Notes under the pieces: model-generated
What the model saw: only the letters and a program-made list of their open reading frames with translations
The model's database searches: none
What the model was told of the DNA's origin: nothing
Part shown: positions 5,982 through 59,748 of the stretch, piece by piece
How the letters are laid out: each line of letters begins with the position of its first letter
Position numbering within the stretch: the stretch's first letter is position 1
Origin: Candidatus Woesearchaeota archaeon
GTDB lineage: Archaea > Nanobdellota > Nanobdellia > Woesearchaeales > UBA11576
NCBI GenBank assembly: GCA_018675335.1
Contig: JABGYH010000007.1
Span: forward strand, 111,902 to 175,901
Direction: 5' to 3'
DNA length: 64,000 nt
Translations under genes and position numbers: made by a program

Positions 5982-5998
5982 ATAATTTTTAAATATGT

Positions 5999-17400: not shown

Positions 17401-17964
17401 TTATGGACAGTTTACAACACGTACAAATGTACCATCTGGTGTGTTAATTGCAACTCTATTTTCTCCAGAAATAACACCCATGTCAAGACCAACACAAATT
17501 GTTGATTCTCCAGGTGTTAAAACTTCAGAACTACATTCAGGAGTTACATCAGATAAACCACGATTCATAATACCTACATTTGGTTTTGCATCAGCAGTTT
17601 TTGTTAAAACCCAATCTTTCTCACCAGTATTAACTAATTCGAAACTGATTTTATCTGCATCACAAACAACATCAGAAAATTCTGCGCTTTCAACAGTAAC
17701 ATCCATTGCTAGACCTTTATCTTCTTTTTCTGCCATTACTTCGTCAGAAATTTCTTCACCTTCTCCTTCTGGAAGAGTTGGTTTTTGTTCTACAACTTCA
17801 ACAGGTTCTGCTACCACAACTGGTTCTGGCACTACAACAGGTTCAGGAGCCACAGGTTCAGGTGCTACAGGAGCTTCCTCAACAGGTGTTTCTTTTGAAC
17901 CACAACCAAAAACAAAAAGTAGAGCTACTGCCAAAATTGCAATTGCTAATAATACTTTTTTCAT
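17401..17964 (-). CDS. Secreted lipoprotein with a Pro/Glu/Val-rich linker and a 4-Cys C-terminal domain
   Basis: Signal peptide ending in the lipobox-like LFVFGC. PEPV repeats (APVAPEPVAPEPVVVPEPVVVAEPVEV). Locally elevated GC. Confidence 0.6.
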   Translation of the reverse strand: MKKVLLAIAILAVALLFVFGCGSKETPVEEAPVAPEPVAPEPVVVPEPVVVAEPVEVVEQKPTLPEGEGEEISDEVMAEKEDKGLAMDVTVESAEFSDVVCDADKISFELVNTGEKDWVLTKTADAKPNVGIMNRGLSDVTPECSSEVLTPGESTICVGLDMGVISGENRVAINTPDGTFVRVVNCP

Positions 17965-29483: not shown

Positions 29484-29936
29484 TTAAACTGCATGATCAG
29501 GTTTAAACTCTTCTTTTTTAATCTCATCAATTAAATAATGAATCTCTTGATTTTCTAAACCAAATCTTTGAGATATGTTTTCTAAAAAAAAATCTAAATC
29601 TTTTACATTAGGGTGTATTGTTTCAATCATAAAATCCCACCCATTATTTATTTTATAAAACGAATTAACCGAGTTATTACAACTCAAGTGATTTCGTAAA
29701 GACTCTTTTGACTCCCCTGACGTTTTTAAAAAAACCATTGCCCGAGTATGATATCCTAATTCAGAAAAATTAAGTAACACAGTATTTTTATGAATAATAT
29801 TTTTTTGAAGAATTTTTATCGAATCAAATAGAGTCGAAACTGGAACTCCCGTTGTCTTACTAATCTTAGTTAGTTTTTCCCTAGAATTATCTCTTAGACA
29901 AGATATTAGTTTTATTAGTTTTTCATTCATAAACAA
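29484..29936 (-). CDS. Lrp/AsnC-family regulator, paralogue of 27978..28415
   Basis: About 50% identical to the 27978..28415 product (VSTLFDS..., LLNFSELG, KINNGWDF). Confidence 0.65.
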   Translation of the reverse strand: MFMNEKLIKLISCLRDNSREKLTKISKTTGVPVSTLFDSIKILQKNIIHKNTVLLNFSELGYHTRAMVFLKTSGESKESLRNHLSCNNSVNSFYKINNGWDFMIETIHPNVKDLDFFLENISQRFGLENQEIHYLIDEIKKEEFKPDHAV

Positions 29937-33918: not shown

Positions 33919-34026
33919 ATTAAGTCGCAGAAGAATCGGCAAACTATGCGCAAGAAAAAAAAGGAATGAATAGCCTGGAAAAAAAAAGAAAAGAAGAGAC
34001 TAAAAAAAAATGGAATGTGATTATAA

Positions 34027-35307
34027 ATGAATTCAGAAAAACTAATCGAAGCTGCTCAAAAATTTAAAACTCCACTTTATGTTTATGATGGAAATTTAAT
34101 TAAAACAAGATATAGAGAATTAAATCATTCATTGAATTGTGCAACTGATGTTAAAACTAAATTATTTTATGCAATGAAAGCAAATTATAATCCGTCAATA
34201 TTAAAATTATTGCTAAATGAAGGTGCAGGAATTGATGCAGTAAGTCCTGCAGAAGTAATGCTCGCTTTAGAAGTAGGATTTTTCCCAAACCAAATACTTT
34301 TCACAGCAAATAAAATAACTGATGAAGAAATGAGACTTGTCAAGTCAACAGGAGTTTTATTTAATATTGGCTCAATTTCTCGATTAAAAAAATATTGTAA
34401 AGAATTCCCAAAAAGCTCAGTATGCATTCGATTTAATCCCATGATTGTTGCAGGAGAAACTGAAAAAGTTAGAACTGGAGGAGAAAATAGCAAATTTGGA
34501 ATTTTTATTTCACAACTAGATCAAGTATTAGAAATTACCCGCTCAGCAGATGTAAAAATTGTTGGAGTTCACGAACACACAGGGTCAGGAATTCCCGAAA
34601 TGGTACAAATGAAAGCAGGCATGCAAAATCTACTTGACATAGTTACTCCAAAAAATTTTCCAGACCTAATATTCGTAGATTTTGGAGGAGGATTTAAAGT
34701 ACCATACACCCCCGGAGAAGAAAAAATTAATTATGATTTATTTGGAAAAGATGCAACACAAATTTTTCTTAATCGAACAAAGGATTTTTACACACAATTT
34801 AATCGACGCATTGAAATGTGGTTTGAACCAGGAAAATATCTTGTTGCAGAATCAGGAAATTTACTCGTTGAAGTTACTGCAATCAAACATAACCCCCATA
34901 AAACATTTGCAGGAACAAATTCAGGCTTCCCTCAGCTCATAAGACCTATGTTTTATCAAGCATACCACCACATAATAAACTTAACAGCAAACCAAGATAA
35001 TCAACGTAGAAATAACTGTGACGAAATCTCAAAACAAATACACCAATATGATATTGTTGGAAATATTTGCGAGAGTGGTGATTGTTTTGGCGTGAATCGT
35101 GAAATGGAAGAAATACATGAAGGAGACATACTATCAATTCAAACTGCCGGAGCTTATTGTTATTCAATGGGTAGCGTTTACAATTTAAGAGTAATGCCTG
35201 CCGAAGTCATGTTTTTAAATAATTCAATTACACTCATTCGTAAAAGACTAACTGAACAAGAGCTAGTCGCACAAATAATTGGAGAATGTAGTACAGATAC
35301 TGAATAA
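34027..35307 (+). CDS. lysA: Diaminopimelate decarboxylase (Orn/DAP/Arg decarboxylase family 2)
   Basis: PLYVYD, YAMKAN (PLP Lys), EPGKYLVAESG, CESGD motifs. Confidence 0.8.
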   Translation: MNSEKLIEAAQKFKTPLYVYDGNLIKTRYRELNHSLNCATDVKTKLFYAMKANYNPSILKLLLNEGAGIDAVSPAEVMLALEVGFFPNQILFTANKITDEEMRLVKSTGVLFNIGSISRLKKYCKEFPKSSVCIRFNPMIVAGETEKVRTGGENSKFGIFISQLDQVLEITRSADVKIVGVHEHTGSGIPEMVQMKAGMQNLLDIVTPKNFPDLIFVDFGGGFKVPYTPGEEKINYDLFGKDATQIFLNRTKDFYTQFNRRIEMWFEPGKYLVAESGNLLVEVTAIKHNPHKTFAGTNSGFPQLIRPMFYQAYHHIINLTANQDNQRRNNCDEISKQIHQYDIVGNICESGDCFGVNREMEEIHEGDILSIQTAGAYCYSMGSVYNLRVMPAEVMFLNNSITLIRKRLTEQELVAQIIGECSTDTE

Positions 35308-37030: not shown

Positions 37031-37429
37031 TTATCCTTTAACTTGTTTCATAACCATCTGATCAAGTACAACCCAGAAAAGAACAGTACATCCTTCAACA
37101 ACGTCATCTTTTAGTTCATCAGGAATCAATAAATCAAATGTTTCAAAGGTTTCAGAGTCCATAATATTTGCCTTATCACCTGCGATAGATAGGACCTGCG
37201 CATTTCGTTTATCAATAATAGGTGCATCAACATGATCGTGTCCAGGCATTACAACAATTCTCTTTTTTCCATCTAAAAGACCCATTGCAGTGATTCTTGC
37301 TTTTGCGTGACCGTGTTTTCCAGGACGACTAACTGATACGTCTGTAACTTTACTTGCCACACCATCAACAATCATATAACTACCTCGTTGAATACTGGAT
37401 ACTTCAATCTTTTTTGTTTCACCTTTCAT
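37031..37429 (-). CDS. eif5a: Translation initiation factor 5A (aIF-5A)
   Basis: Hypusine loop SRPGKHGHAKA. OB-fold C-terminal domain. Confidence 0.85.
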   Translation of the reverse strand: MKGETKKIEVSSIQRGSYMIVDGVASKVTDVSVSRPGKHGHAKARITAMGLLDGKKRIVVMPGHDHVDAPIIDKRNAQVLSIAGDKANIMDSETFETFDLLIPDELKDDVVEGCTVLFWVVLDQMVMKQVKG

Positions 37430-38482: not shown

Positions 38483-39208
38483 TCAACATTTAATTACCTT
38501 TAGCGGCGCTCTAGAGCCCAACAATTCAGTTATTTTCCCTTTTTCAATATCAGATACAGATTCTAAATGAAATGATGCAATTTCTTTACCATTCCAATTA
38601 GAAATTTTAAGAATTGCTGCTTTTTGATTTTTTAATTGAGAATTGGAATAATTCGTTAAGAATTCGCCAACTAAACTCATAAACTCTTCAGATTCAGATT
38701 TGATTAAAGTCATATTTCGATCATCACTCACAATTTCACAATTCCCAAAATAAAAAGAAATTTGGTTAGAATAAATTTCAGACTTTTTCTCAAACCCATT
38801 AAAACGTTTTAACTGATAAAAATTATGATTTAAAAAATTTTTAAAAGATTTAATTAAACTTGATTTTAAGTAAAATGTTACCCCCAACCAAAAACCACCA
38901 CAACATTTAGAAACTTCTCGCGGGCGTAAATATTTAATGTCTTTCAAATTAATTTTTAGAAACTCATTTTGTCCTTTAGATAAATAACTCGTCAATTTAC
39001 TCATAAGCTTTAAATTTTTAGAAGGGTTAACTAATTCAAATTTGATTTGAGGAGATTTTAGATTAAATTTTTTTTGGAATTCTAAAATGAAATGCACAAA
39101 ATCAATGCCTCCGAGTTCTATTAGTTTGTTATCTGAACCCACAAAAGAATACACAATAGTTGATTTAATTTCAAATTTATTTTTAAAAAAATTAATTTTA
39201 TTTAACAT
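38483..39208 (-). CDS. Hypothetical protein (241 aa)
   Basis: Tightly coupled downstream of the SprT-like gene (3-nt gap). No motif recognised. Confidence 0.4.
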   Translation of the reverse strand: MLNKINFFKNKFEIKSTIVYSFVGSDNKLIELGGIDFVHFILEFQKKFNLKSPQIKFELVNPSKNLKLMSKLTSYLSKGQNEFLKINLKDIKYLRPREVSKCCGGFWLGVTFYLKSSLIKSFKNFLNHNFYQLKRFNGFEKKSEIYSNQISFYFGNCEIVSDDRNMTLIKSESEEFMSLVGEFLTNYSNSQLKNQKAAILKISNWNGKEIASFHLESVSDIEKGKITELLGSRAPLKVIKC

Positions 39209-39211
39209 TTT

Positions 39212-39988
39212 TTAATTTAATGAATTTTTAATTGATTCGACTAGTCCCGACAAAAAACTTTGTTGAGGCTTTGGTGATTTTGGCTGTACTTTTCTTTTTT
39301 TTGCCTCAATTTTATTTTTTTCTTCTACAAAAAGATGTTTTTTATAACCAACCCCTTTAAGACGGCGTTCCATTTCTTCTTGATTTTCAAAAACTTTTTC
39401 TAAACGCTTAAACTTACGATCATGATAAAGTGTTTTAGATCCAGAACGCACAAATTTTCTTTGCTTATGCAAAACTTCATGATACATCACATAATCAAGC
39501 AAAACAGGATCTTCATTTAACAACATTTTACTAATCGATACTGTATCTGCCTTGTAATCATATGTCCCAAAAACTCTAGTCGCATTTGTCCAAACAAGAT
39601 TTGGTCGTTCTACTAACCCCAAAAAATAACGCTCATTAATCCGATTAAAAGATCGTTCCAGAATGGGATGCGATCTATGTTTTGGAATTGCAAGATGAAG
39701 ATTTTTAACAAAATTATGATACAAATCAATATTTAACGTCGTAAATTTACCTTTAATTTTCCACAACCTTAACATTAACTCTTGAATAAAACCCATTTGA
39801 ATTTCTTCAGAAATCGAAAACCATTTCCTATTAAGTTTAACAGTCAGTTTATTATGATCCAATAAAATGTGCCCACCATAATCTTTAATCCGACCAGAAT
39901 AAATCACGCTTGGTTTGTAATTAAACGCACGATCAGGATATAATTCAAGAAATGACTTTTCTATTAAGTAATCTTTTTTTGAAAACAT
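39212..39988 (-). CDS. SprT-like/WLM-type zinc metalloprotease domain protein
   Basis: ...NLVWTNATRVFGTYDYKADTVSISKMLL...VMYHEVLHKQ...HDRKFKRLEKVF (HExxH plus a distal His). Confidence 0.5.
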   Translation of the reverse strand: MFSKKDYLIEKSFLELYPDRAFNYKPSVIYSGRIKDYGGHILLDHNKLTVKLNRKWFSISEEIQMGFIQELMLRLWKIKGKFTTLNIDLYHNFVKNLHLAIPKHRSHPILERSFNRINERYFLGLVERPNLVWTNATRVFGTYDYKADTVSISKMLLNEDPVLLDYVMYHEVLHKQRKFVRSGSKTLYHDRKFKRLEKVFENQEEMERRLKGVGYKKHLFVEEKNKIEAKKRKVQPKSPKPQQSFLSGLVESIKNSLN

Positions 39989-42696: not shown

Positions 42697-43797
42697 TTAA
42701 CTCTGAACAGGATAACGCAATATTGCTGCAAATTTACCCATATCTTTTAATTGAACACCCTCGCGAGTGTCAGTAGAAATTATTTGAACATCAGACCCAA
42801 GATTAATTGCGATTTCTTCTAACTCTTCAATTTCTTCATCTTCACAAGAATCAGATACTAGAACAGTTTCTACCGCACCCATCTCCAATACTTTTTTGAC
42901 TTGAGCTTTACCGTACGCGACCATATTTTGATCTTTTGCCAGATGCCCAAAAAACACACCCATTAATTTCTTTTCATCAGCAATTCCTTCTTCTGCAAGA
43001 AGATCTTGAGCTTTATCAACAAGTTCGTTTAAGCCAAATTCACCAGTATACGATAAATCTTTAGAACCAATAATTTTTTTTTTGACATCTCCCGTAATAT
43101 AATCTTTATTTAAAAAATTATTAACAGTAGTTCCTGGACCACCAATGATTATTCCTTTAAGTTTTTCAAGATGAAGAAAATTTTCTTTCATGTAATCCGC
43201 AATTTTTTTGAAATGATCTTTAACTGCACCCTCCCTTAAACGTTGAAAACGAGGAGCGGATTGACCTCCAGCACGCATTTTACCTGGAACTTCACTATGT
43301 GTTTTTTTCAATGGAATAATTGCTTTACCCTTAAGAAGTGCAAGCATACCATCCCTTTGATCTAAAACAACAAGACCATAAATCTCATCCGTATCAATCA
43401 TTTCTTGTAATGGTTCAACAATAAATTCCTTATCACACCTATAAGTCCTAAAATTAAGGGGGACTGGAGGTTCAAGTGACCAAACTTTAATATCATCTTG
43501 ACCTTCCCTTTCAGAAACATTTCCCGAAAAAATTGCAAGACCATTCGGAGGAGTTTTTGGAATTAATTTTAGATGTTGAATCATACGTTCCAATGCACCA
43601 ATAACATTTTCCCTAGTATTTTTTGACTTAATATTAGAAGCAGTTCCTTGCTCTTGTGAAAGATGATTTGAAATTGCATTAATATCATAACCCGCAGGAA
43701 CATAAACAGTAACAAGCTCAGTATGCCTACCACGATAACTCGCAATTTGTTTAACAAATTTTTTAAGTTTAAATTTATCTTTTTCTGTAATAGCCAT
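42697..43797 (-). CDS. prf1: Peptide chain release factor aRF1
   Basis: NIKS and GGQ (AGGQSA) motifs. Confidence 0.85.
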   Translation of the reverse strand: MAITEKDKFKLKKFVKQIASYRGRHTELVTVYVPAGYDINAISNHLSQEQGTASNIKSKNTRENVIGALERMIQHLKLIPKTPPNGLAIFSGNVSEREGQDDIKVWSLEPPVPLNFRTYRCDKEFIVEPLQEMIDTDEIYGLVVLDQRDGMLALLKGKAIIPLKKTHSEVPGKMRAGGQSAPRFQRLREGAVKDHFKKIADYMKENFLHLEKLKGIIIGGPGTTVNNFLNKDYITGDVKKKIIGSKDLSYTGEFGLNELVDKAQDLLAEEGIADEKKLMGVFFGHLAKDQNMVAYGKAQVKKVLEMGAVETVLVSDSCEDEEIEELEEIAINLGSDVQIISTDTREGVQLKDMGKFAAILRYPVQS

Positions 43798-46543: not shown

Positions 46544-47638
46544 ATGCCAGATTATAATGATAGAATAAAAGAATTTGAAGATGAATTACGTAAAACGAAG
46601 TACAATAAACGAACTCAACACTCCATTGGTCTGTTAAAAGCTAAAATCGCTGTTCTCAAAGATAAAGAAGTATCTAGAGGAAAAAAAGGAAAAAAAGGCG
46701 AAGGATATTCTGTTAAAAAAAGTGGAGATGGAACTGTAATTATGGTTGGATTTCCAAGTGCAGGTAAAAGTAGTTTACTTAATGCAATTACCAACGCGAA
46801 TAGCCCCGTAGGTGCATATGAGTTCACCACGCTCGATGTTGTTCCAGGACTAATGGAACATAAAGATGCAAAAATACAAATCTTAGATGTCCCTGGAATC
46901 GTAAGAGGTGCTGCAAGTGGAAGAGGTCGAGGTCGCGAAGTTCTTTCAGTAATACGAAACGCAGAACTTGTTTTAATAATTGTTGATGTTACAAGACCTG
47001 AAGCATATCCAGTTATCCAGAAAGAAATTTATGATTCCCACGTAAGACTCAATCAATCAAAACCAGATATTAGAATAAGAAAAAAAATGAAAAATGGAAT
47101 TAGAATTGGTAAAACTGTTCGTCTTCCAGATTTAAATGATGATACAATTAAACTCATATGTAAAGAGTTCAGAATAAGTAATGCAGAAATTTTAATTCGA
47201 ACACCAATAAATGCAGATCAATTAATAGATATGATTGAAGGCAATAAAAAATATCTCCCTTCAGTAGTTGTATTAAACAAAATTGATTTAGTTGATAAAA
47301 AAAGACTCGAAGAAATTAAAAAAGAAATTAAACCAGATATTTGCATAAGTGTGCAAGACGGATTTGATACTGAAGAAATAAAAGAAATAATATTTCAAAA
47401 AATGAATTTAATTAGAGTCTATTGTAAAGAAACTGGGAAAAAGGCAGACTTAGATATCCCACTCATAATACGTGCAAACTCCACAATTGAAACTATGTGT
47501 AGAAAATTACACAAAGACTTCGTAAGTAAGTTTCGATTTGCAAAAGTCTGGGGGCCAAGTTCAAAATTTGGCGGCCAAATATTAAGACTAAAACACAAAC
47601 TTAAAGACACAGATATTGTTGAAATACATCTGAGGTAA
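46544..47638 (+). CDS. DRG/Obg-family GTPase with a C-terminal TGS domain
   Basis: VGFPSAGKSSLLNAIT, FTTLDVVPG, DVPGIV. Start taken at ATG 46544 (MPDYNDRIKEFE...) rather than the TTG track start that overlaps the convergent gene. Confidence 0.8.
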   Translation: MPDYNDRIKEFEDELRKTKYNKRTQHSIGLLKAKIAVLKDKEVSRGKKGKKGEGYSVKKSGDGTVIMVGFPSAGKSSLLNAITNANSPVGAYEFTTLDVVPGLMEHKDAKIQILDVPGIVRGAASGRGRGREVLSVIRNAELVLIIVDVTRPEAYPVIQKEIYDSHVRLNQSKPDIRIRKKMKNGIRIGKTVRLPDLNDDTIKLICKEFRISNAEILIRTPINADQLIDMIEGNKKYLPSVVVLNKIDLVDKKRLEEIKKEIKPDICISVQDGFDTEEIKEIIFQKMNLIRVYCKETGKKADLDIPLIIRANSTIETMCRKLHKDFVSKFRFAKVWGPSSKFGGQILRLKHKLKDTDIVEIHLR

Positions 47639-47644
47639 ATATTT

Positions 47645-48454
47645 ATGTTTATAATTGATTTTAATCCAATCATTGTTTCAATTGGCACCATGCAAATTAG
47701 ATGGTATGGAATAATTTACATTCTAGGATTTGTATTCGCATATTTTTGGCTTAATTATGTTGGCAAAAAATGGGTAAAACAATTTGATAAAGAGAATGTA
47801 GAAGAATTTATTTTATATTTAATGATTGGAATTATTGCAGGTTCAAGATTATTTGAAATGATTTTTTATCGGTTTGAAAGTTTTATTGCAAACCCCCTTG
47901 AATTGTTTAAAATCTGGGAAGGTGGAATGAGCTTTCATGGCGGACTTATCGGAACATTTTTGGCAGTTAAAATTTGGAGTGTTCGTCGACGAATTGAGTT
48001 TTGGAAAATACTTGACTTAATAAGTCCAGTCGCAATATTTTCATTAATGCTTGGACGAATAGGCAATTTATTGAATGGAGAATTAATCGGAACTCCATTT
48101 AATGGACCGTGGTGTGCAATTTTTTCTGGAGTGGATAATGTTTGTAGACACCCATACCCAATTTATGCATTTATCTCGCATTTGTTATTATTTAGTTGGC
48201 TAATATTTTTAATTTATTTGAATAGGTCAACGCTTAAAAAGTTTTTTGGTTCTAAACTATTATCAATTAATTTTTTAATAGGCTATGGAATATTAAGAAT
48301 CATTACAGACATTTGGAAAATTGACAATATAGTTTTAGGTTTGAAAACAGGACAATTGCTAAGTGTTATTATGATTATTATAGGACTTGGAATTTTTGCT
48401 TGGACAAAGAAAAAATGGATTTTAAATAAGATAACCTCGGAGCACAAAAAATGA
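47645..48454 (+). CDS. lgt: Prolipoprotein diacylglyceryl transferase (bacterial-type Lgt)
   Basis: By-eye alignment with E. coli Lgt: FNPIIVSIGTMQIRWYGIIYILGF, WEGGMSFHGGLIG, GRIGNLLNGELIG, LIGYGILRII. Confidence 0.85.
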   Translation: MFIIDFNPIIVSIGTMQIRWYGIIYILGFVFAYFWLNYVGKKWVKQFDKENVEEFILYLMIGIIAGSRLFEMIFYRFESFIANPLELFKIWEGGMSFHGGLIGTFLAVKIWSVRRRIEFWKILDLISPVAIFSLMLGRIGNLLNGELIGTPFNGPWCAIFSGVDNVCRHPYPIYAFISHLLLFSWLIFLIYLNRSTLKKFFGSKLLSINFLIGYGILRIITDIWKIDNIVLGLKTGQLLSVIMIIIGLGIFAWTKKKWILNKITSEHKK

Positions 48455-48831
48455 AAGATGTCAGCACATACTTAGTTTGTAAAGAACACATATTAGAAGT
48501 AAAAGAATTTCTTAAACAGTTTTTTGAAGAAGAAAAAGGAAGATATAACCATAAAGAATGGATCACATTCAAATTATTAAATTCAGATTTTAAAATTTGT
48601 TTAATGACTGGAGATAATCAACCAATAACACAAAATATTACATTCGAAATTAATTGTAAATCTCTTGAAGAACTAAAAAATTATGCTCATAAATTTAATA
48701 AAAAAATTGAAAACTTTTTAGCTACAGCAACCGAAAAACCATATAGATTTTATTTTATAGAAATACAAGGACCTAATGGAATTTGTAAAATAGATATTAG
48801 CTGTTGTGAAGAAGAACCTAAAACTAATTAA
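48451..48831 (+). CDS. Hypothetical protein, possibly VOC/glyoxalase-like fold
   Basis: 126-aa ORF whose start overlaps the lgt stop. A weak beta-alpha-beta-beta-beta pattern. Confidence 0.35.
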   Translation: MKDVSTYLVCKEHILEVKEFLKQFFEEEKGRYNHKEWITFKLLNSDFKICLMTGDNQPITQNITFEINCKSLEELKNYAHKFNKKIENFLATATEKPYRFYFIEIQGPNGICKIDISCCEEEPKTN

Positions 48832-48834
48832 ATC

Positions 48835-49230
48835 TTAAACTGCAACCACATACGCCAAAATACATAAAAGAGTAATAATTGCAGACGATAAATGCCACTC
48901 CCAATCATCCTTTTTCTTTTTACGTAAATAATAAATACCAATAAAAACAAATACTAAAGCCAATAAAAAATATGGTTGTTTGAAATTAGATAAGTAGCAC
49001 AAATACAAATTGTAAAATATTAATGAATATGCTAAAATTTTATCAATTAATTCGAATTTTTTTTCTTTGTGTGCGTGATACAAACAAGAAAAAATAATCA
49101 CCCCTGCAAGCAAGATTGAATGTAGTATAAGATGATTCCAAATAGCAATTGTTAACGGAATTATAAAAAAAATATTGCTCCAAACTTTAGAATTTAAACA
49201 TTTATTTTTTAGTTTTTGATCAAATAACAT
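48835..49230 (-). CDS. Hypothetical membrane protein (4 TM)
   Basis: Hydrophobic 131-aa ORF. Confidence 0.4.
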   Translation of the reverse strand: MLFDQKLKNKCLNSKVWSNIFFIIPLTIAIWNHLILHSILLAGVIIFSCLYHAHKEKKFELIDKILAYSLIFYNLYLCYLSNFKQPYFLLALVFVFIGIYYLRKKKKDDWEWHLSSAIITLLCILAYVVAV

Positions 49231-49537: not shown

Positions 49538-50938
49538 TTACCTATAAGTTTTACGTTTACCACGACCCATACCTTTCATGCCACCCATAAGTCCACCAAT
49601 TCCCCCTCTCTGCATCATTTTTTGCATTTGTTCAGGAGATCCAGACTTACCCGCAAAAGATTTGATCATTTTTTTACTTTGCCTATATTGTTTTATTAAT
49701 TCTCGAACATCAGAAATAGTTTTTCCACTACCTGTTGCAATACGATCAATACGACTAGGAGTCATTACATTTTCAGGATCTTCAAGTTCTTTTTTAGTCA
49801 TAGAATTCATCATGTGTTTCCACACTTTTAATTTTTCTTCTTGACCTTTTAACATATCTTTAGGAATTTTAAGACCACCAAATCCAGGAATCATATCAAC
49901 AATTTTACCCAGAGGACCCATTTTAGACATCGCACTCATTTGTTCATACAAATCAATTAGATTAAAATCACCTTTAATTAATTTTTTACCCATATCTTGA
50001 GCATCCTCTTCAGAAATTGCTTCTCTTGCTTTTTCAAGCAAACCCTCTAAATCTCCCATACCAAGAAGCTTACCTACAAAACGTTCAGGAACAAAAGTTT
50101 CAAGATCATCAATTTTCTCCCCGACACCAATAAATTTTACTTTAGCACCAGTAATAGAACAAGCAATTAACGAGCCACCACCTTTAGCAGTACCTTCAAG
50201 TTTAGTAATAACAACACCTGACACATTACATGTTTCATGAAATGCTGCAGCTTGTTTTTCTGCTGCTTGACCCACATCACCACCAATAACTAATAATCTT
50301 TCATCAGCTTGAACTTCAGTTGCGATATGATTAAGTTCTTCAATAAGCTCATCAGACAATGCATCTCTTCCTGCAGTATCTATAATTACAATATCAAATT
50401 TGTTAAGTTCTTCTTCAAACTCTTTAAAAATATCAACAGGATTTTTGGCTTTGGGATTTCCAAAAACAGGAACTTCGATTTGCGCACCTAATTGTTGAAG
50501 TTGAATGAATGCTGCGGGACGCCAGGTATCTGTTGATACAAGTGCAACTTTATGTCCTCGTTTTTTGTAATATTTTGCAAGCTTACCAGAAGTTGTCGTC
50601 TTACCATGACCAAATAAACCAACCAACATAATTCTTGTTGGTTTTTTAGAAACATCAATTTTGGATTCTTTTTCACCAAGAAATTTTACTAACTCTTCAT
50701 ACACTATTTTTATTAAAAATTCTTTTTTTGTTAAACCGGCAGGAGGTTCATCTTTTAAAATTCTTTTTTTGATCTCTTTTGTTAATTCAAAAACCATTCG
50801 AACATTAACATCAGATTGTAAAAGAGCCCGCTGAATATCTTTAACTAATTCATTAACTAGTTTTTCATCTACAAATAATGCACCTGAAATCTTAGATAAT
50901 GTATCCTTTAATGATGAACCGAGTTTTTCTAATACCAT
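49538..50938 (-). CDS. srp54: Signal recognition particle protein SRP54
   Basis: GLFGHGKTTTSGKLA, DTAGR, and a Met/Gly-rich M-domain (GGLMGGMKGMG). Confidence 0.93.
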   Translation of the reverse strand: MVLEKLGSSLKDTLSKISGALFVDEKLVNELVKDIQRALLQSDVNVRMVFELTKEIKKRILKDEPPAGLTKKEFLIKIVYEELVKFLGEKESKIDVSKKPTRIMLVGLFGHGKTTTSGKLAKYYKKRGHKVALVSTDTWRPAAFIQLQQLGAQIEVPVFGNPKAKNPVDIFKEFEEELNKFDIVIIDTAGRDALSDELIEELNHIATEVQADERLLVIGGDVGQAAEKQAAAFHETCNVSGVVITKLEGTAKGGGSLIACSITGAKVKFIGVGEKIDDLETFVPERFVGKLLGMGDLEGLLEKAREAISEEDAQDMGKKLIKGDFNLIDLYEQMSAMSKMGPLGKIVDMIPGFGGLKIPKDMLKGQEEKLKVWKHMMNSMTKKELEDPENVMTPSRIDRIATGSGKTISDVRELIKQYRQSKKMIKSFAGKSGSPEQMQKMMQRGGIGGLMGGMKGMGRGKRKTYR

Positions 50939-54867: not shown

Positions 54868-56052
54868 CTAGTTTAATTCTGAAATTATTAGTTCAAATAA
54901 ATCCAATGAACCATTTTCTAATTGAATATTAAACAACAAAAAGTTATCTTGATGCTGTTTAATAAATCTATGATTGAATAAGGACTCAGAATTATAAGTT
55001 ACATGAGAATAATTAAAATCACCCGCACTCATTTGTTTTGATGAAAATCCAGAAATATTAAAGTTTGATTCAAGTTCATTTAATAAAAAAAGATAATCGC
55101 TTGCATCTTGTTTTGAATCAAATGAGAATACTGATTGAGATAAAATTGAATTTTCATTAATTGTGTGGATTTTTGTTGTATATTGTACGTCCACAAAAGA
55201 TGAAAAAAAAGCAAAAAGTTCGGGATTGTACACTAAATGAATTGTTGACATAAAATTAATTCTTGCGTTATTAAGCAAATGATCTGATTGTTTCTTAAAT
55301 TTAGTTGAATCTATTTCATTTATTTTTACAACATTATCTAACTCGTTTAAATTCGAACCATCAAGAATAACTGCTGATAGTGATTCATTTCTTATACGAA
55401 TACTATCACTTAAACTTTCACTAATAAATGCACCAGTCACATAAACTTCAACGATTGCTGCAATTAATAAAAGAAGAATTACAATTTCTATAAATGCTTT
55501 CAAATTATTTCTTGCAAACTTCCAAAATGAGAATTGAATAAACAATTTTTTTCTAAAAATTAATTTTAATAAAACTGCAACCCCTAATGTTGATGAAAGA
55601 AATAACGCAGGCAATTCAAAAATTCCATGAGGAATGATTCCCAATACCATTTGAATTGGAATAAACCCATTAAGATGCGCTAACTTAAACCCCAAATCAA
55701 ACATCAATCCAATAACTAACCCGTTGGATAGCAAGAGCAAGAATGGAGGCAATAATAACAAGCCTGACAGAGACATTAAAACTGCCACATACAAATTGTT
55801 GAAGAATATATTAAACGTTAAGAGCGCAGAATTAGATGTGTGGACAGACTCAACTAACAAAGCTAGTGAATCAAATAATTGAAGTTTAAAATTATTAGGC
55901 ATGAAAAATGCAGCAATAAAACCTAACATGAAAAAAGAAATGACAACATACAATAAATACCGATGAGAGTAAAAAATAGATTTGAAAAAAGCAAAATACT
56001 CGTGTTCGTATTTTTTAATTGATTTTGATTTGTTTTTTGTTTTTTTTCTCAT
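54868..56052 (-). CDS. SpoIIM/DUF95-family membrane protein with a C-terminal extracytoplasmic domain
   Basis: ...NGLVIGLMF...IIPHGIFELPALFLSS... DUF95 signature. Confidence 0.55.
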   Translation of the reverse strand: MRKKTKNKSKSIKKYEHEYFAFFKSIFYSHRYLLYVVISFFMLGFIAAFFMPNNFKLQLFDSLALLVESVHTSNSALLTFNIFFNNLYVAVLMSLSGLLLLPPFLLLLSNGLVIGLMFDLGFKLAHLNGFIPIQMVLGIIPHGIFELPALFLSSTLGVAVLLKLIFRKKLFIQFSFWKFARNNLKAFIEIVILLLLIAAIVEVYVTGAFISESLSDSIRIRNESLSAVILDGSNLNELDNVVKINEIDSTKFKKQSDHLLNNARINFMSTIHLVYNPELFAFFSSFVDVQYTTKIHTINENSILSQSVFSFDSKQDASDYLFLLNELESNFNISGFSSKQMSAGDFNYSHVTYNSESLFNHRFIKQHQDNFLLFNIQLENGSLDLFELIISELN

Positions 56053-56105: not shown

Positions 56106-56426
56106 ATGCACGAACAAGCAATTGCCCAACAAATAATAGAAAAAGCAAAAGAATTAGGCCAAGTTAAACAAATTTTTGTTGAAGTTGGGGATTTAGGCCA
56201 CTTGCCCGCCAATGAAATGAAAGAAGTTCTAGAAAATCGAGTTGATTGGAAAATAATTATTGAAGAAAAAAAAGCAACAGTTAAATGCGAATGTGGATAT
56301 TTAGGCGAACCAAATATTATTGAAAAACGACATGCCTCAACACTATATGAGTGTCCTAACTGCGGAAATTTACCCCAAATTATTGACGGAGACAAAATCA
56401 TACTCACAAAAGTTGAAATTGAATAA
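56106..56426 (+). CDS. hypA: [NiFe]-hydrogenase nickel-insertion protein HypA
   Basis: MHE N-terminus and CECG...CPNCG zinc site. Confidence 0.75.
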   Translation: MHEQAIAQQIIEKAKELGQVKQIFVEVGDLGHLPANEMKEVLENRVDWKIIIEEKKATVKCECGYLGEPNIIEKRHASTLYECPNCGNLPQIIDGDKIILTKVEIE

Positions 56427-56493: not shown

Positions 56494-57267
56494 ATGACAG
56501 ACAATGTCAAAAAAATAACAAAACCACGTAAACCGAAAGTAGGTTTTTTTTCATTCACTTGCTGTCAAGGCTGCCAATTTACAGTTTTATTCATCGATGA
56601 AATTCTAAATATATTAAATAAATTTGATGTTAAATATTTCCACCTAATAAAAGAAAAAAATAGAGAGGGAAAGTTTGACATAGTATTTGTCGAAGGTGCT
56701 ATAACCACAAAAAAGGAATTAAAAAAACTAAAACAAATTAGAGAAAAATCAAAAATTGTTGTTGCTATGGGTGCTTGTGCATGCCATGGAGGGATACCTG
56801 CAATGCGAAACTTTCTTGAAAATTCTGAATTAAATAAATATGTATATAACCAAAATATGTTAAAAGATTCCATTGAAGCAAAAGGCGTTGGAGAACACAT
56901 AACAGTAGATTACTATCTTAGAGGATGTCCAATAATTAAAGAAGAATTTGTTGAATTTGTAAAAAAATATTTGAAAAAAGAAAAAATAGAAGAATTCATA
57001 GGTCCAGTATGTGTTCAATGTTCAAAACGAGGAAAGGATTGTTTCTTAACTCAAAAGAAAATGTGTTTAGGTGCTATAACTCATGGAGGTTGTGGTGCCA
57101 TATGTACAAAAGAAAATATTCCTTGTGTTCTTTGTCGAGGACCAGTTGATCACGCAAATTTTACAGGAGAAATAAAATTATTTGAAAGTTGGGGAGTTAG
57201 TTATGAAGAAATCAAAAATAAACTAACTGAATTTGATAATATCAAATTGGATGATCCCAAAAAATAA
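56494..57267 (+). CDS. [NiFe]-hydrogenase small subunit (group 3-like)
   Basis: FSFTCCQGCQ proximal-cluster motif plus additional Cys clusters (CACHGG, CVQCSKRGKDC...CGAIC...CVLC). Confidence 0.75.
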   Translation: MTDNVKKITKPRKPKVGFFSFTCCQGCQFTVLFIDEILNILNKFDVKYFHLIKEKNREGKFDIVFVEGAITTKKELKKLKQIREKSKIVVAMGACACHGGIPAMRNFLENSELNKYVYNQNMLKDSIEAKGVGEHITVDYYLRGCPIIKEEFVEFVKKYLKKEKIEEFIGPVCVQCSKRGKDCFLTQKKMCLGAITHGGCGAICTKENIPCVLCRGPVDHANFTGEIKLFESWGVSYEEIKNKLTEFDNIKLDDPKK

Positions 57268-57282
57268 TTGTGAGAATAAAAA

Positions 57283-58581
57283 ATGAGCAAAACAATAAAT
57301 CTTAATCACATAACTAAAATTGAAGGGCATGCGAAGCTACACATAGTAGTAGATGGAAATAAAATAAAAAAAGCAGAATTGAAAATCTTTGAAGGAAGCA
57401 GATATTTTGAAGGAATACTGAAAGGTAAAAAATTTGATGAAGTTCCAATAATTGCTTCACGAATTTGTGGAGTGTGTTCTGTAGTTCATACGATTGCAGC
57501 AAACAAAGCTATTGAAGATGCATTCGAAATAACGGTCAGCAAACAAACAAAATTACTTCGAGAACTTCTAAACATAGGAGGAATTATTCAGAGTCATGTT
57601 TTACACCTATATTTTTTAGTCTTACCAGACTATTATGGGTATAGCAGTGCAATTGAGATGGCGCCAACCCATAAAGAATTAATTAAAACTGCACTAAGAA
57701 TTAAAAAAGCAGGAAATAAAATAGTTAGAGTGGTTGCAGGACGAGATATACATCCAATTGCAGAAGTTATTGGCGGTCTTTCTCGAACTCCTGATGAAAC
57801 TGCATTGAAAAGTTTACTATCTGAATTAAAAAGCATAAAAAAAGATGCAAAATTTACTCTAAATGTTTTTGACGAATTAGATTATCCCTCAATTATTTTA
57901 GACCACCCTTATTTTGGGTTTGGAGGGGGAAGTTATTTTTATTCAGACAAAGTCATAAATGGTCTTGACGGTGAAGAATACACTGAAAAAGAATATGAAA
58001 AACATTTTAAAGAATTCTTAAGAAAAGGATCAACTGCAGAATTTGCCACAAAAGAAGGCAAAACCTACATGGTCGGAGCATTACCTCGAATATTACTTCG
58101 AATCGAAAAAAATGATTTAAAAACTCAAAAAAAATATTTAAAAAAAATCTTAAACAATAAATGGAATCCATATATGAATGTTCTTGCGCAAGCAATAGAA
58201 ATCAATGAAGGAATAATCAACTCAATTGAAATTTTAGAACAAGTTTTATTAAATTTTAAAAAAGAATCTCCTGCAACTTTTGTTGTTAAAAAATCTGAGG
58301 GAATTGGACGAGTAGAAGCTCCACGAGGGATGCTATTTCACCAATACAAATTTGACTCCAAAGGAAACTGTACTTTTGCAAATATCACCACCCCCACAAC
58401 GCAAAACTTAGCACATGTTGAGGATGCAATTAAGATACTTGTTGAAACATTATTACTTGATGAAAAAAAGAGTAAGAAAGACATTAAACTTGATATTGAA
58501 AAATTAATACGCGCATATGATCCTTGCATAAGTTGTTCAACGCACTTTTTAGAACTTAATTGGGAAGAATTCAAGAAATGA
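57283..58581 (+). CDS. [NiFe]-hydrogenase large subunit
   Basis: N-terminal RICGVCSVVH (RxCGxCxxxH) and C-terminal DPCISCSTHF (DPCxxCxxH) Ni-Fe ligand motifs, plus a C-terminal extension for proteolytic maturation. Confidence 0.88.
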   Translation: MSKTINLNHITKIEGHAKLHIVVDGNKIKKAELKIFEGSRYFEGILKGKKFDEVPIIASRICGVCSVVHTIAANKAIEDAFEITVSKQTKLLRELLNIGGIIQSHVLHLYFLVLPDYYGYSSAIEMAPTHKELIKTALRIKKAGNKIVRVVAGRDIHPIAEVIGGLSRTPDETALKSLLSELKSIKKDAKFTLNVFDELDYPSIILDHPYFGFGGGSYFYSDKVINGLDGEEYTEKEYEKHFKEFLRKGSTAEFATKEGKTYMVGALPRILLRIEKNDLKTQKKYLKKILNNKWNPYMNVLAQAIEINEGIINSIEILEQVLLNFKKESPATFVVKKSEGIGRVEAPRGMLFHQYKFDSKGNCTFANITTPTTQNLAHVEDAIKILVETLLLDEKKSKKDIKLDIEKLIRAYDPCISCSTHFLELNWEEFKK

Positions 58582-59007: not shown

Positions 59008-59748
59008 ATGAAAATACCCCTATTAACTGAAGGAGAATCCAAGGTCTATACCTCACTAAATGAATTAGGTGAAAGCACCACAGGCTTAATTTTGAAGAAT
59101 TCAGGAGTTTCACACTCCAAAATATATGATATTCTCAAAAGACTATCTAAAAAAGGATTAGTTAGCACAGTAAATAAAAATGGAGTTCAACATTTCAGCC
59201 CCGCACCACCTGAAAGATTAAATGAACTTGTAAACGAAACTGAACTCTCACTCGCGAATACAAAACAAGAAGTTAAAGAAATTATTAATAAACTAAAAAT
59301 AGTTGAAAAAACAGGAATTAAAACAAGTGCACTAAATTCATATGAAGGAATAAAAGGCATGAAGACAGTTCTCGAAAAAGTTTTGTCACATTTAGCCCCA
59401 GAAGAGACAGTATTAATATTGGGATCTCCAAAAAAAGTAGGAGAACAAACAGGAGGCTATTTGAAGAACTGGCAACAAAAAAGAATAAATAAAAAAGCTA
59501 AATGTAAAATCATAGTCAACAAAGACTCTATTTCATGGGATGACAAATGGTGGAAAGAAAGTAAACGCAAAAAATTAACAATCACCAAAAAATCAAATAA
59601 TTTGGCCCCAGCATACCTAGTCATAACTAATTCAGTTGTCGCCACAATATATTTTTCAGAAAAACCACTATCCTTCTTAATCGAACACAAAGAAATTGCT
59701 AAAAGTTATAAAGAGTTTTTTAATCAAGCTTGGAGAGAATCGAAGTAA
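59008..59748 (+). CDS. TrmB-family transcriptional regulator
   Basis: N-terminal wHTH LTEGESKVYTSLNELGESTTGLILKNSGVSHSKIYDILKRLSKKGLV. Confidence 0.65.
   Translation: MKIPLLTEGESKVYTSLNELGESTTGLILKNSGVSHSKIYDILKRLSKKGLVSTVNKNGVQHFSPAPPERLNELVNETELSLANTKQEVKEIINKLKIVEKTGIKTSALNSYEGIKGMKTVLEKVLSHLAPEETVLILGSPKKVGEQTGGYLKNWQQKRINKKAKCKIIVNKDSISWDDKWWKESKRKKLTITKKSNNLAPAYLVITNSVVATIYFSEKPLSFLIEHKEIAKSYKEFFNQAWRESK

What the first reader, a model, noticed from the sequence alone, without database searches (positions are those of the whole stretch)
47645..48454. Bacterial-type prolipoprotein diacylglyceryl transferase (Lgt) in an archaeal genome, with a candidate lipobox substrate in the same window
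Seen: strong by-eye alignment to E. coli Lgt, including the G-M-S-F-H-G-G-L-I-G signature. Also a secreted protein at 17401-17964 whose signal peptide ends in LFVFGC followed by a PEPV-rich linker. Established: Lgt catalyses the first step of bacterial lipoprotein maturation. Archaeal lipobox proteins exist, but canonical Lgt homologues are generally reported absent from archaea. Inference: this is a horizontally acquired bacterial lipoprotein pathway, fitting the other bacterial-type envelope genes here (S66 LD-carboxypeptidase, lysA).
Basis: partly seen in the sequence, partly recalled or inferred. Interest (0 to 1): 0.65.

Follow-up and report, generated by a model that had tools for sequence, protein, structure and literature searches.

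The report
Bacterial-type Lgt in a Woesearchaeote
An archaeal (Woesearchaeota, DPANN) chromosome carries an intact copy of Lgt, the bacterial enzyme that lipid-anchors secreted proteins; recent papers say archaea lack it, yet this copy belongs to a large archaeal clade that also has the partner signal peptidase Lsp and lipobox substrates.

Summary
ORF 47645-48454(+) is a full-length Lgt. It scores 207.6 bits on PF01790 and passes the curated cut-off of TIGR00544. The AF2 model (pLDDT 95) matches only E. coli Lgt. All core catalytic residues are kept.

The window is archaeal throughout (aRF1, aIF2alpha, Gins51, LonB, DRG, L37ae). lgt starts 6 nt after the DRG stop codon. Its synteny recurs in a 64%-identical orthologue from other samples, so chimerism is excluded.

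The exact protein is already deposited (MBT7903216.1, Candidatus Woesearchaeota). All 19 archaeal-labelled homologues, plus 85 unlabelled ones, form one clade that excludes 77 named and 20 unlabelled bacterial-side sequences (NJ bootstrap 99/100). The donor lineage is unresolved.

A related Woesearchaeote has Lsp 4 kb from lgt. No Lsp lies in this window.

The candidate substrate 17401-17964(-) keeps its signal peptide and GC|G lipobox in 3 of 4 homologues.

The clade replaces head-domain residues that are invariant in the sampled bacteria (E243D, R246K, G75F). Another lgt-bearing genome encodes CDP-archaeol synthase nearby. The lipid donor may therefore be archaeal; this is inferred.

Papers from 2018 to 2026 state that Lgt and Lsp are absent from archaea.

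The parts
47645..48454 (+). lgt: prolipoprotein diacylglyceryl transferase homologue, 269 aa, 7 predicted TM helices. It has a shortened head domain, about 22 aa shorter than E. coli.
   Evidence: PF01790 at 207.6 bits. TIGR00544 at 168.4 bits against a cut-off of 118.9. 39.5% identity to E. coli Lgt with Y26, R73, H103, D129, R143, N146, E151, G154, H196, Y235 and R239 kept; E243 is D222 and R246 is K225. AF2 model pLDDT 95.2 and pTM 0.90. The only significant PDB match is 5AZB, E 2.4e-16, TM 0.73. Identical to NCBI MBT7903216.1.
47632..47636 (+). Shine-Dalgarno-like GAGGT, 8 nt upstream of the lgt ATG and overlapping the DRG stop codon (TAA, 47636-47638). This arrangement suggests co-transcription and translational coupling with the DRG gene.
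   Evidence: Read directly from the sequence. The function is inferred.
46544..47638 (+). DRG-type GTPase (MMR_HSR1 + MMR_HSR1_Xtn + TGS), an archaeal/eukaryotic-type gene immediately upstream of lgt. It is context, not part of the lipidation machinery.
   Evidence: Pfam hits. The public gene call is 364 aa. The DRG-lgt linkage is kept in the P0002 locus.
48451..48831 (+). 126-aa ORF whose ATG overlaps the lgt stop codon by 4 nt (ATGA). It has only a weak sub-threshold hit to PF06983. It is not conserved next to lgt in relatives, so it is probably unrelated.
17401..17964 (-). Candidate lipoprotein substrate, 187 aa. The signal peptide is residues 1-20 (17905-17964). The lipobox is V-F-G-C with Cys21 at 17902-17904. 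A Pro/Glu/Val/Ala-rich tether follows, then a Cys-containing C-terminal domain of unknown family.
   Evidence: Three homologues exist. Two of them keep the signal peptide and a canonical lipobox (LLVVGC|G, VLAIGC|G) plus the P/E-rich linker. The third carries an uncleaved TM anchor and no Cys. Homologue P0241 reports the same longest-contig length (159,462 bp) as the Lgt orthologue P0002, so the two probably share a contig.

Best explanation
This is a functional, vertically inherited archaeal copy of the bacterial enzyme Lgt. It belongs to a large clade confined, as far as labelled sequences show, to Woesearchaeota/Nanoarchaeota (DPANN). An ancestor of that group most likely acquired it once from a bacterium, and it is now fully adapted to the host genome.

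Proposed mechanism. Secreted proteins with a Sec signal peptide ending in a lipobox ([LVI]-x-[GAS]-C) are exported. One example is the protein at 17401-17964. Lgt then transfers the dialkyl- or diacyl-glyceryl moiety of a glycerophospholipid with a glycerol head group onto the Cys thiol. It would use the conserved H98, R138, N141, G149 and R218 centre. In related Woesearchaeota a bacterial-type signal peptidase II (Lsp) then removes the signal peptide.

What is shown: family membership, catalytic residues, fold, archaeal context, clade structure, co-occurrence with Lsp in a relative, and conserved lipobox substrates.

What is inferred: enzymatic activity, and the donor lipid. I favour archaetidylglycerol, an ether lipid on a glycerol-1-phosphate (G1P) backbone, at about 50-60%. 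Two reasons support this. An lgt-bearing relative encodes CDP-archaeol synthase 5 kb away. The clade has also remodelled the head-domain H-bond network next to R239 that is invariant in the sampled bacteria.
For: Family and chemistry:
- PF01790 full length and TIGR00544 above the curated cut-off.
- All core residues are conserved in the window protein.
- Y26, R73, H103, R143, N146, N149, G154 and R239 are essentially invariant across all 104 clade members; R239 has one gapped sequence.
- The AF2 model has pLDDT 95 and matches only 5AZB.

Archaeal residence:
- Archaeal markers occur across the window.
- lgt lies 6 nt after the DRG stop codon, preceded by an SD-like GAGGT.
- GC and GC3 match the neighbours.
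- Synteny is conserved in orthologue P0002 on GCA_018659545.1, an ENA assembly and a Logan assembly.
- Seven other homologue loci are flanked by archaeal genes: RLI/ABCE1, aIF1A, V_ATPase_I, proteasome alpha, Rpp14, S19e, L31e, S17e, Alba, Cbf5 and LSM.

Clade: all 19 archaeal-labelled sequences plus 85 unlabelled ones form one clade that excludes 77 labelled and 20 unlabelled bacterial-side sequences, with NJ bootstrap 99/100.

Pathway partner:
- In L006, Peptidase_A8/Lsp (PF01252, E 3.5e-37) lies 4.3 kb from lgt.
- That Lsp aligns to LspA structures 6RYO and 5DIR with the GNLIDR and FNIADS motifs.
- The 120 closest Lsp relatives were listed; every one that carries an organism name is Woesearchaeota or Nanoarchaeota.

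Substrates:
- The window lipobox protein keeps its lipobox in 3 of 4 family members.
- There are 5 credible strict-lipobox proteins in 131 kb of lgt-bearing archaeal loci.
- These include lipobox cupredoxins two genes downstream of lgt in L005 and L007.

Lipid donor:
- CarS (PF01864, E 5e-36) lies 5 kb from lgt in L090.
- A GGR-like reductase occurs in L005.
- Clade-specific changes are E243D (85/104), R246K (33/33 in this subclade), G75F (88/104) and E202A (31/33). All 97 bacterial-side sequences keep E, R and G at the first three positions; E202 is E or Q in 95 of 97.

Context from papers: Hong et al. [quoted passage not shown]
Against: - No Lsp or Lnt lies in the 64-kb window. The rest of the roughly 560-kb contig could not be read.
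- In E. coli, E243A/Q/R and R246K mutants fail to complement (PMC4728403). D222 and K225 could therefore mean reduced or altered activity.
- The window lipobox has Phe at -2, which is non-canonical.
- The bacterial comparison set is biased. It holds the closest hits, mostly Proteobacteria and Nitrospirota, and the genome scan was truncated at 600 stretches.
- The midpoint root falls between the archaeal clade and the bacteria, so nesting within Bacteria, and hence the direction of transfer, is not formally shown.
- Only NJ trees were possible.
- No activity or lipid data exist.
- Some Woesearchaeota carry bacterial G3P dehydrogenase and fatty-acid genes (PMC8204110), so a bacterial-type donor is not excluded.
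Confidence: 0.8

Rival explanations
1. Assembly or binning artefact: the lgt gene is bacterial DNA wrongly joined to an archaeal contig.
For: Lgt is otherwise a bacterial hallmark. The sequence comes from metagenome assemblies.
Against: The gene is embedded between archaeal genes with a 6-nt gap upstream and a 4-nt overlap downstream. Its composition matches the neighbours. The same gene order recurs around a 64%-identical orthologue from different samples and assemblers. Seven further divergent homologues all lie in archaeal contexts. The archaeal sequences form a clade of their own.
Confidence: 0.02
2. Functional Lgt that uses a bacterial-type (G3P, ester-linked) phosphatidylglycerol. The lipid would be made by the archaeon from laterally acquired fatty-acid and G3P genes, or taken from a bacterial host. 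The chemistry would then be exactly bacterial.
For: All residues that contact phosphatidylglycerol and catalyse transfer are kept. Castelle et al. 2021 report bacterial G3P dehydrogenase, fatty-acid synthesis genes and murein-lytic proteins in Woesearchaeota, and suggest that some have bacterial hosts (PMC8204110). The window itself holds other bacterial-type genes: a long RelA/SpoT and an S66 LD-carboxypeptidase.
Against: CDP-archaeol synthase lies 5 kb from lgt in L090, and a GGR-like reductase occurs in L005. The clade has changed E243, R246, G75 and E202; the first three are invariant and E202 is E or Q in the sampled bacteria, and all sit next to the lipid glycerol site (PMC4728403). No bacterial phospholipid genes were seen in the window or in any fetched locus.
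Confidence: 0.25
3. The homologue has changed its job or is decaying. It may no longer lipidate prolipoproteins. It could act on another acceptor, act as a lipid hydrolase, or be a relic. Lipobox proteins would then be handled by the archaeal AliA system.
For: D222 and K225 replace E243 and R246, and R246K and E243A/Q/R are inactive in E. coli complementation (PMC4728403). The head domain is shortened. AliA occurs in some DPANN (PMC12462473). SpoIIM, a frequent AliA neighbour, lies 6.4 kb from lgt.
Against: Core catalytic residues are essentially invariant across 104 clade members that diverge to about 35-40% identity, which indicates strong purifying selection. A dedicated archaeal clade of Lsp co-occurs, and Lsp needs a lipidated Cys. 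Lipobox proteins sit beside lgt in L005 and L007. The E243D and R246K pair is fixed in 33/33 subclade members, which looks like co-adaptation rather than decay.
Confidence: 0.1

Closest known systems
Bacterial Lgt (E. coli Lgt, PDB 5AZB/5AZC; PF01790, TIGR00544)
   Same: Full-length homology at 39.5% identity. The H103-GGLIG arm-2 motif is identical, and the G142-G154 signature is conserved at its key positions (GRIGNLLNGELIG against GRLGNFINGELWG). Y26, R73, D129, R143, N146, E151, G154, H196, Y235 and R239 are all conserved. Both have a 7-TM fold (TM-score 0.73). Lipobox substrates are present, and a partner Lsp occurs in relatives.
   Different: The host is an archaeon. The head domain is about 22 aa shorter. 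E243 is D, R246 is K, G75 is F and E202 is A in this subclade. All 97 bacterial-side sequences keep E, R and G at the first three positions, and two of these changes are lethal in E. coli assays (PMC4728403). The membrane lipids available are probably archaeal, which is inferred.
AliA/AliB (arCOG02177/02178) of Haloferax volcanii, the only experimentally supported archaeal lipoprotein lipidation factors
   Same: The same predicted biological role: thioether lipidation of the lipobox Cys of secreted archaeal proteins. A similar neighbourhood theme also appears, with SpoIIM and inositol monophosphatase genes near lgt here and in L008.
Bacterial LspA (signal peptidase II; PF01252; PDB 5DIR, 6RYO), as the pathway partner found in related Woesearchaeota
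   Same: The L006 protein (151 aa) matches PF01252 at E 3.5e-37 and carries the GNLIDR and FNIADS motifs that hold the catalytic Asp pair.
   Different: It was not found in this 64-kb window. It forms its own large set of relatives labelled Woesearchaeota or Nanoarchaeota.
Other bacterial-type systems already described in Woesearchaeota/Pacearchaeota (MEP pathway, G3P dehydrogenase, fatty-acid genes, DnaK and GroEL, murein-like lytic transglycosylases; Castelle et al. 2021, PMC8204110)
   Same: The same pattern: a bacterial module acquired by, and maintained in, these DPANN lineages.
   Different: That paper's main text does not mention Lgt or Lsp lipoprotein maturation. No searchable paper pairs 'diacylglyceryl transferase' with a Woesearchaeota name, and none of the 25 listed hits for 'prolipoprotein' plus DPANN lineage names contained 'prolipoprotein'.

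Membership tests
Lgt (prolipoprotein diacylglyceryl transferase, PF01790/TIGR00544) | Full-length match to the family profile above the curated threshold | tested here: met
   PF01790 profile 1-240/240, 207.6 bits against 24.9. TIGR00544 equivalog, 168.4 bits against 118.9.
Lgt (prolipoprotein diacylglyceryl transferase, PF01790/TIGR00544) | Arm-2 motif GGMSFHGGLIG with H103, and the signature G142-RLGNFINGELWG-154 with R143, N146, E151 and G154 | tested here: met
   Window residues 93-103 read GGMSFHGGLIG. Residues 137-149 read GRIGNLLNGELIG. R138, N141, E146 and G149 align to the E. coli residues.
Lgt (prolipoprotein diacylglyceryl transferase, PF01790/TIGR00544) | Essential residues Y26, Y235 and R239 | tested here: met
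   These correspond to Y21, Y214 and R218. Y26 is invariant, and R239 is invariant apart from one gapped sequence, in all 104 clade members.
Lgt (prolipoprotein diacylglyceryl transferase, PF01790/TIGR00544) | Head-domain H-bond network residues E243 and R246, invariant and mutation-intolerant in bacteria | tested here: not met
   They are D222 and K225 here. The changes are conservative but fixed: 33/33 in this subclade, while all 97 bacterial-side sequences keep E and R. R246K and E243A/Q/R do not complement in E. coli (PMC4728403). This argues for a variant site, not against homology.
Lgt (prolipoprotein diacylglyceryl transferase, PF01790/TIGR00544) | Seven-TM fold with arms and head, as in 5AZB | tested here: met
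   AF2 pLDDT 95.2 with 7 long helices. Foldseek finds 5AZB at E 2.4e-16, TM 0.73/0.69, and no other hit below E 0.8.
Lgt (prolipoprotein diacylglyceryl transferase, PF01790/TIGR00544) | Transfers diacylglyceryl from phosphatidylglycerol to the lipobox Cys (enzymatic activity) | not testable with these tools
   Needs complementation or an in-vitro assay.
Bacterial-type lipoprotein maturation pathway (Lgt + Lsp, with or without Lnt) | Lsp (PF01252) encoded in the same genome | tested here: inconclusive
   None lies in the 64-kb window (tblastn; Pfam scans). One is present 4.3 kb from lgt in the related Woesearchaeote L006.
Bacterial-type lipoprotein maturation pathway (Lgt + Lsp, with or without Lnt) | Lipobox-bearing secreted substrates | tested here: met
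   One in the window, conserved in 3 of 4 homologues. Five credible ones in 131 kb of related loci, two of them beside lgt.
Bacterial-type lipoprotein maturation pathway (Lgt + Lsp, with or without Lnt) | Lnt (apolipoprotein N-acyltransferase) | tested here: inconclusive
   No Pfam hit suggestive of Lnt among the window ORFs scanned. The rest of the genome was not tested. Lnt is optional even in bacteria.
Inter-domain horizontal transfer (bacteria to Woesearchaeota ancestor) | Archaeal sequences monophyletic and restricted to one archaeal lineage | tested here: met
   A clade of 104 sequences, including 19 archaeal-labelled and no bacterial-labelled ones, with 99/100 NJ bootstrap. All labels are Woesearchaeota, Nanoarchaeota or 'archaeon'. 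Papers report absence elsewhere in archaea (PMC13251419, PMC12462473).
Inter-domain horizontal transfer (bacteria to Woesearchaeota ancestor) | Archaeal clade nested inside bacterial diversity with an identifiable donor | tested here: inconclusive
   The midpoint root separates the archaeal clade from the sampled bacteria. Bacterial sampling is biased and truncated.
AliA/AliB (arCOG02177/02178) | Homology to the AliA family | not tested
The window protein is PF01790, which the authors report as at most marginally similar to AliA (PMC12462473).

The most novel reading that the evidence does not exclude
Woesearchaeota and related DPANN archaea run a complete bacterial-type Lgt + Lsp lipoprotein pathway in place of the archaeal AliA system. 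Their Lgt would have been re-tuned (E243D, R246K, G75F, E202A and a shortened head) to take archaetidylglycerol as donor. That lipid is ether-linked on a G1P backbone. The enzyme family would then have crossed the bacterial/archaeal 'lipid divide'. [quoted passage not shown] 2025 invoked for archaea with many lipoproteins but no AliA or AliB.
Probability: 0.35. Interest if true: 0.8.

Novelty: new member of a known kind. Interest (0 to 1): 0.6.

Why it matters
Reviews and primary papers up to 2026 state that no archaeal genome encodes Lgt, Lsp or Lnt. That supposed absence motivated the search for AliA and AliB (PMC6098224, PMC12462473, PMC13251419).

This locus contradicts the statement for one major uncultivated archaeal lineage. 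The evidence is the locus itself plus more than 100 clade-mates and a parallel archaeal Lsp set. The proteins are already auto-annotated in NCBI, but they appear undiscussed in the searchable literature.

It offers three things:
- A candidate explanation for lipobox proteins in DPANN genomes that lack AliA.
- A natural experiment on whether a bacterial lipid-transfer enzyme can work with archaeal lipids of opposite glycerol stereochemistry. The clade-specific substitutions are concrete mutations to test.
- Another marker of deep bacterial gene flow into Woesearchaeota cell-surface biology, which bears on who their hosts are.

Tried and rejected
- Chimeric assembly: rejected on synteny, gene spacing, composition and clade structure.
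- Lsp in the window: tblastn with the Woesearchaeote Lsp found nothing (best E 0.56).
- Lsp on the same contig: I tried to spot this genome's Lsp by matching contig lengths between the Lgt and Lsp hit lists. Only the L006 contig matched.
- Lsp in other loci: a search of the 13 other archaeal loci found it only in L006.
- Donor lineage: the GTDB scan stopped at 600 stretches and returned mainly Proteobacteria and Nitrospirota at 32-41% identity. The midpoint-rooted NJ tree gave reciprocal monophyly and no donor.
- AliA test: the supplements of Hong et al. are not held and no Pfam or NCBIfam model was identified, so presence or absence of AliA is untested.
- SpoIIM extension: I considered that the C-terminal extension of SpoIIM (54868-56052) might be an AliA-like domain. 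Its sequence is non-membrane, so I dropped the idea.
- Unannotated window ORFs: NCBIfam scans gave nothing related to lipoproteins.
- The 126-aa ORF overlapping the lgt stop codon is not conserved beside lgt in relatives, so I do not count it as part of the system.
- Literature: five searches found no paper describing archaeal Lgt or Lsp. Most 'LGT' hits mean lateral gene transfer.
Full report
**Observation**

The ORF at 47645-48454(+) encodes 269 aa.
- It matches Pfam PF01790 (LGT) over the whole profile, at E 2.4e-61 and 207.6 bits against a gathering score of 24.9.
- It passes NCBIfam's curated cut-off for the equivalog TIGR00544 lgt, at 168.4 bits against 118.9.
- Its only relative among solved structures is E. 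coli Lgt, 5AZB/5AZC, at E 6.6e-41.
- The second element, ORF 17401-17964(-), begins MKKVLLAIAILAVALLFVFGC followed by GSKETPVEEAPVAPEPVAPEPVVVPEPVVV.

Both observations are therefore real and far beyond chance.

**Anatomy of the enzyme**

I aligned the window protein with E. coli Lgt. The E. coli sequence was written from memory but agrees with the PDB alignment. Identity is 39.5%.

Every residue highlighted by mutagenesis and structure work is kept: W25/Y26, R73, H103-G104, D129, R143, N146, E151, G154, H196, Y235 and R239. Two positions are conservatively changed, E243 to D222 and R246 to K225. The periplasmic head domain is about 22 residues shorter.

An AlphaFold2 model built on 119 homologues has mean pLDDT 95.2 and pTM 0.90, with seven long helices. 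Foldseek against the PDB finds 5AZB at E 2.4e-16 and TM 0.73/0.69. No other hit is below E 0.8.

**Is the contig archaeal, and is the gene really part of it?**

The window carries these archaeal markers:
- aRF1 (TIGR03676, 413.6 bits against 234.7) at 42697-43797.
- aIF2-alpha at 13414-14202.
- Gins51 at 14977-15702.
- Archaeal LonB at 19901-21925.
- PAC2 at 12041-12931.
- Kae1 at 23160-24167.
- aIF5A at 37031-37429.
- SRP54 at 49538-50938.
- TrmB at 59008-59748.
- Ribosomal protein L37ae and prefoldin between 44 and 46 kb.

lgt starts 6 nt after the stop codon of a DRG-type GTPase (MMR_HSR1_Xtn + TGS). A GAGGT lies 8 nt upstream of its ATG. Its own stop codon overlaps the next ORF's ATG. Its GC (0.295) and GC3 (0.233) are those of its neighbours (window GC about 0.30).

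The identical protein is in NCBI as MBT7903216.1, 'prolipoprotein diacylglyceryl transferase [Candidatus Woesearchaeota archaeon]'. It sits on contigs of 556-564 kb in several assemblies.

A 64%-identical orthologue (P0002) lies in the same gene order: eRF1, L37ae, UPF0147, MscS, DRG, lgt, SRP54, ABC transporter, SpoIIM, Hyp. That orthologue comes from other samples and assemblers: GCA_018659545.1, an ENA assembly and a Logan assembly.

Seven more divergent homologues (38-57% identity) are each flanked by archaeal genes. These include RLI/ABCE1, aIF1A, A/V-ATPase subunit I, proteasome alpha, RNase P Rpp14, S19e, L31e, S17e, Alba, Cbf5, LSM and ELP3.

Chimerism is excluded for practical purposes.

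**How widespread, and where from?**

Among the 120 best database relatives, every one that carries an organism name is labelled Woesearchaeota, Nanoarchaeota or 'archaeon', down to the first bacterial name at rank 93 (a Nitrospirales bacterium, 35% identity).

The scan of GTDB representative genomes stopped at its 600-stretch limit. It returned five more archaeal loci and about 75 bacterial ones, mostly Gamma- and Betaproteobacteria, Nitrospirota and Desulfobacterota, at 30-41% identity.

I built a neighbour-joining tree of 201 sequences. All 19 archaeal-labelled sequences plus 85 unlabelled ones fall in one clade. That clade excludes all 77 labelled bacterial sequences and 20 unlabelled ones that group with them. 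Support is 99/100 bootstraps. The window's subclade (P0001-P0032) has 87/100.

Midpoint rooting puts the root between this clade and the sampled bacteria. Neither a donor nor nesting inside Bacteria can therefore be claimed from these data.

The clade is deep, with identities down to about 35-40%. The gene is compositionally at home. Synteny persists at 64% identity. One old acquisition followed by vertical descent is the best reading, but it is an inference.

**The rest of the pathway**

No Lsp is present in the 64-kb window, and none appeared in the Pfam scans of its ORFs.

In the Woesearchaeote contig L006 (GCA_019322805.1), a 151-aa gene lies 4.3 kb from lgt and next to aIF1A. It matches PF01252 (signal peptidase II) at E 3.5e-37. 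It aligns to the LspA structures 6RYO and 5DIR, and has the GNLIDR and FNIADS motifs that carry the catalytic aspartates (the role of these motifs is from my own knowledge).

Its 120 closest relatives were listed. All those that carry an organism name are Woesearchaeota or Nanoarchaeota. Both bacterial enzymes therefore exist as archaeal clades. Whether this particular genome has Lsp remains open.

**Substrates**

It fits only the relaxed pattern because position -2 is Phe.

The protein has only three database homologues. Two keep a signal peptide with a canonical lipobox (LLVVGC|G and VLAIGC|G) and the same Pro/Glu-rich tether. The third has a longer uncleaved anchor and no Cys. Homologue P0241 reports the same longest-contig length (159,462 bp) as the Lgt orthologue P0002, so the two probably share a contig.

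In 131 kb of lgt-bearing archaeal loci there are five credible strict-lipobox proteins, plus two antisense artefacts. In L005 and L007, a lipobox cupredoxin lies two genes downstream of lgt. This recalls halocyanin, the classical archaeal lipoprotein (my own knowledge).

**What differs from bacterial Lgt**

Across the 104 clade members the catalytic core is conserved: Y26, R73, H103, R143, N146, N149 and G154 are invariant, and R239 is invariant apart from one gapped sequence.

Several positions differ systematically from the 97 bacterial-side sequences, which are invariant at the first three:

| E. coli position | Change in the archaeal clade | Count |
|---|---|---|
| G75 | F | 88/104 |
| E243 | D | 85/104 overall; 33/33 in the window's subclade |
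| R246 | K | 33/33 in the window's subclade |
| E202 | A | 31/33 in the window's subclade |

At E202 the bacterial-side sequences are not invariant: 74 have E and 21 have Q.

In the E. coli structure, E243 and R246 sit with R239 in a buried H-bond network of the head domain, next to the C3 hydroxyl of the bound diacylglycerol. The mutants E243A/Q/R and R246A/E/H/K/Q all fail to complement (PMC4728403).

A fixed, correlated change in such a site looks like re-tuning rather than decay. What it is tuned to is not shown.

**Lipid donor**

Three indirect facts bear on the donor:
- An lgt-bearing genome of the window's subclade (L090, P0027) encodes CDP-archaeol synthase (PF01864, E 5.2e-36) 5 kb from lgt.
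- L005 has a geranylgeranyl-reductase-like gene.
- Castelle et al. 2021 report bacterial G3P dehydrogenase and fatty-acid genes in some Woesearchaeota, and Huang et al. 2021 report missing GGGPS and DGGGPS (PMC8204110, PMC8421398).

I therefore favour an archaeal ether-lipid donor, archaetidylglycerol, at about 50-60%. A bacterial-type phosphatidylglycerol is the main alternative.

**Comparison with what is known**

The protein is a member of the Lgt family by every sequence and fold criterion. The one exception is the strict invariance of E243 and R246.

It is not AliA or AliB, the Haloferax factors, which the authors found to be at most marginally similar to PF01790 (PMC12462473).

The literature position is explicit:
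[quoted passage not shown] Hong et al. also note that archaeal genomes exist with many predicted lipoproteins but without AliA or AliB.

No searchable paper pairs 'diacylglyceryl transferase' with a Woesearchaeota name, and none of the 25 papers listed for 'prolipoprotein' plus DPANN lineage names contained 'prolipoprotein'. The DPANN protein-family survey that catalogues bacterial systems in these lineages does not mention lipoproteins.

The genes are, however, already named correctly by automatic annotation in NCBI and JGI.

**Verdict**

In family terms it is a new, already auto-annotated member of a known enzyme family in an unexpected domain.

Its value lies in three things. It contradicts a repeated statement in the literature. 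It supplies a candidate for the 'missing' lipidation route in DPANN. It defines testable substitutions that may mark adaptation of a bacterial lipid transferase to archaeal membranes.

The main gaps are the rest of this genome (Lsp, AliA, lipid genes), a properly sampled phylogeny, and any biochemistry.

Noticed in passing
window 24386-26332 (+): A bacterial-type long RelA/SpoT (HD_4 + RelA_SpoT + TGS + ACT; TIGR00691, 679.8 bits against a cut-off of 499.2) lies in this archaeal contig. It is another probable inter-domain acquisition, with (p)ppGpp signalling in a DPANN archaeon.
   Followed up: partly
window 3071-6616 (+): A same-strand, partly overlapping cluster: ATP-grasp (GSH-S_ATP/RimK-like), an Octopine_DH-like dehydrogenase, an S66 LD-carboxypeptidase (MccF/LdcA-like) and a DUF3335/C39-like peptidase. 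It looks like a small peptide-making or peptide-processing module of unknown role.
   Followed up: partly
window 54868-56052 (-); also window 6647-7492 (-) and L008 12062-12835: A SpoIIM-family membrane protein (394 aa, with a roughly 190-aa non-membrane C-terminal extension) lies 6.4 kb from lgt, and this is conserved in the P0002 locus. Inositol monophosphatase genes lie in the window and 3.3 kb from lgt in L008. Hong et al. 2025 list SpoIIM and inositol monophosphatase as typical neighbours of aliA in other archaea. This could be coincidence or a shared neighbourhood logic.
   Followed up: partly
L005 1372-3029 and L007 2773-4439: A conserved trio: lgt, a MamF/MmsF-family small membrane protein, and a cupredoxin with a strict lipobox (LILTSC, MLVAC). 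A halocyanin-like predicted lipoprotein is thus encoded right beside lgt in two Woesearchaeota/Nanoarchaeota MAGs.
   Followed up: partly
L090 15586-16137 (-): CDP-archaeol synthase (CarS, PF01864, E 5.2e-36) lies 5 kb from a subclade-I lgt. This indicates archaeal polar-lipid assembly in an Lgt-bearing genome.
   Followed up: partly
window 32575-35307 (+): Aspartokinase (just below the TIGR00657 cut-off) lies next to a bona fide lysA (TIGR01048 above the cut-off). This is part of the DAP-pathway route to lysine, not an envelope function.
   Followed up: yes
window 56494-58581 (+) with HypA at about 56106-56426: Small and large subunits of a [NiFe] hydrogenase lie next to hypA. The hyp genes, but not obviously the hydrogenase subunits, are also present in the syntenic P0002 locus.
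   Followed up: no
window 9241-10281 (-) and 28503-29468 (+): Two regulators each carry a duplicated AsnC/Lrp-type HTH (two HTH_AsnC/HTH_24 stretches in one chain). Two single-domain Lrp-like proteins lie at 27978-28415 and 29484-29936.
   Followed up: no
window 48835-49230 (-), 22029-23087 (-), 38483-39988 (-), 26794-27531 (-): Several ORFs of 130-350 aa have no Pfam or NCBIfam match. One is a 131-aa multi-TM protein immediately downstream of the lgt operon on the opposite strand.
   Followed up: partly
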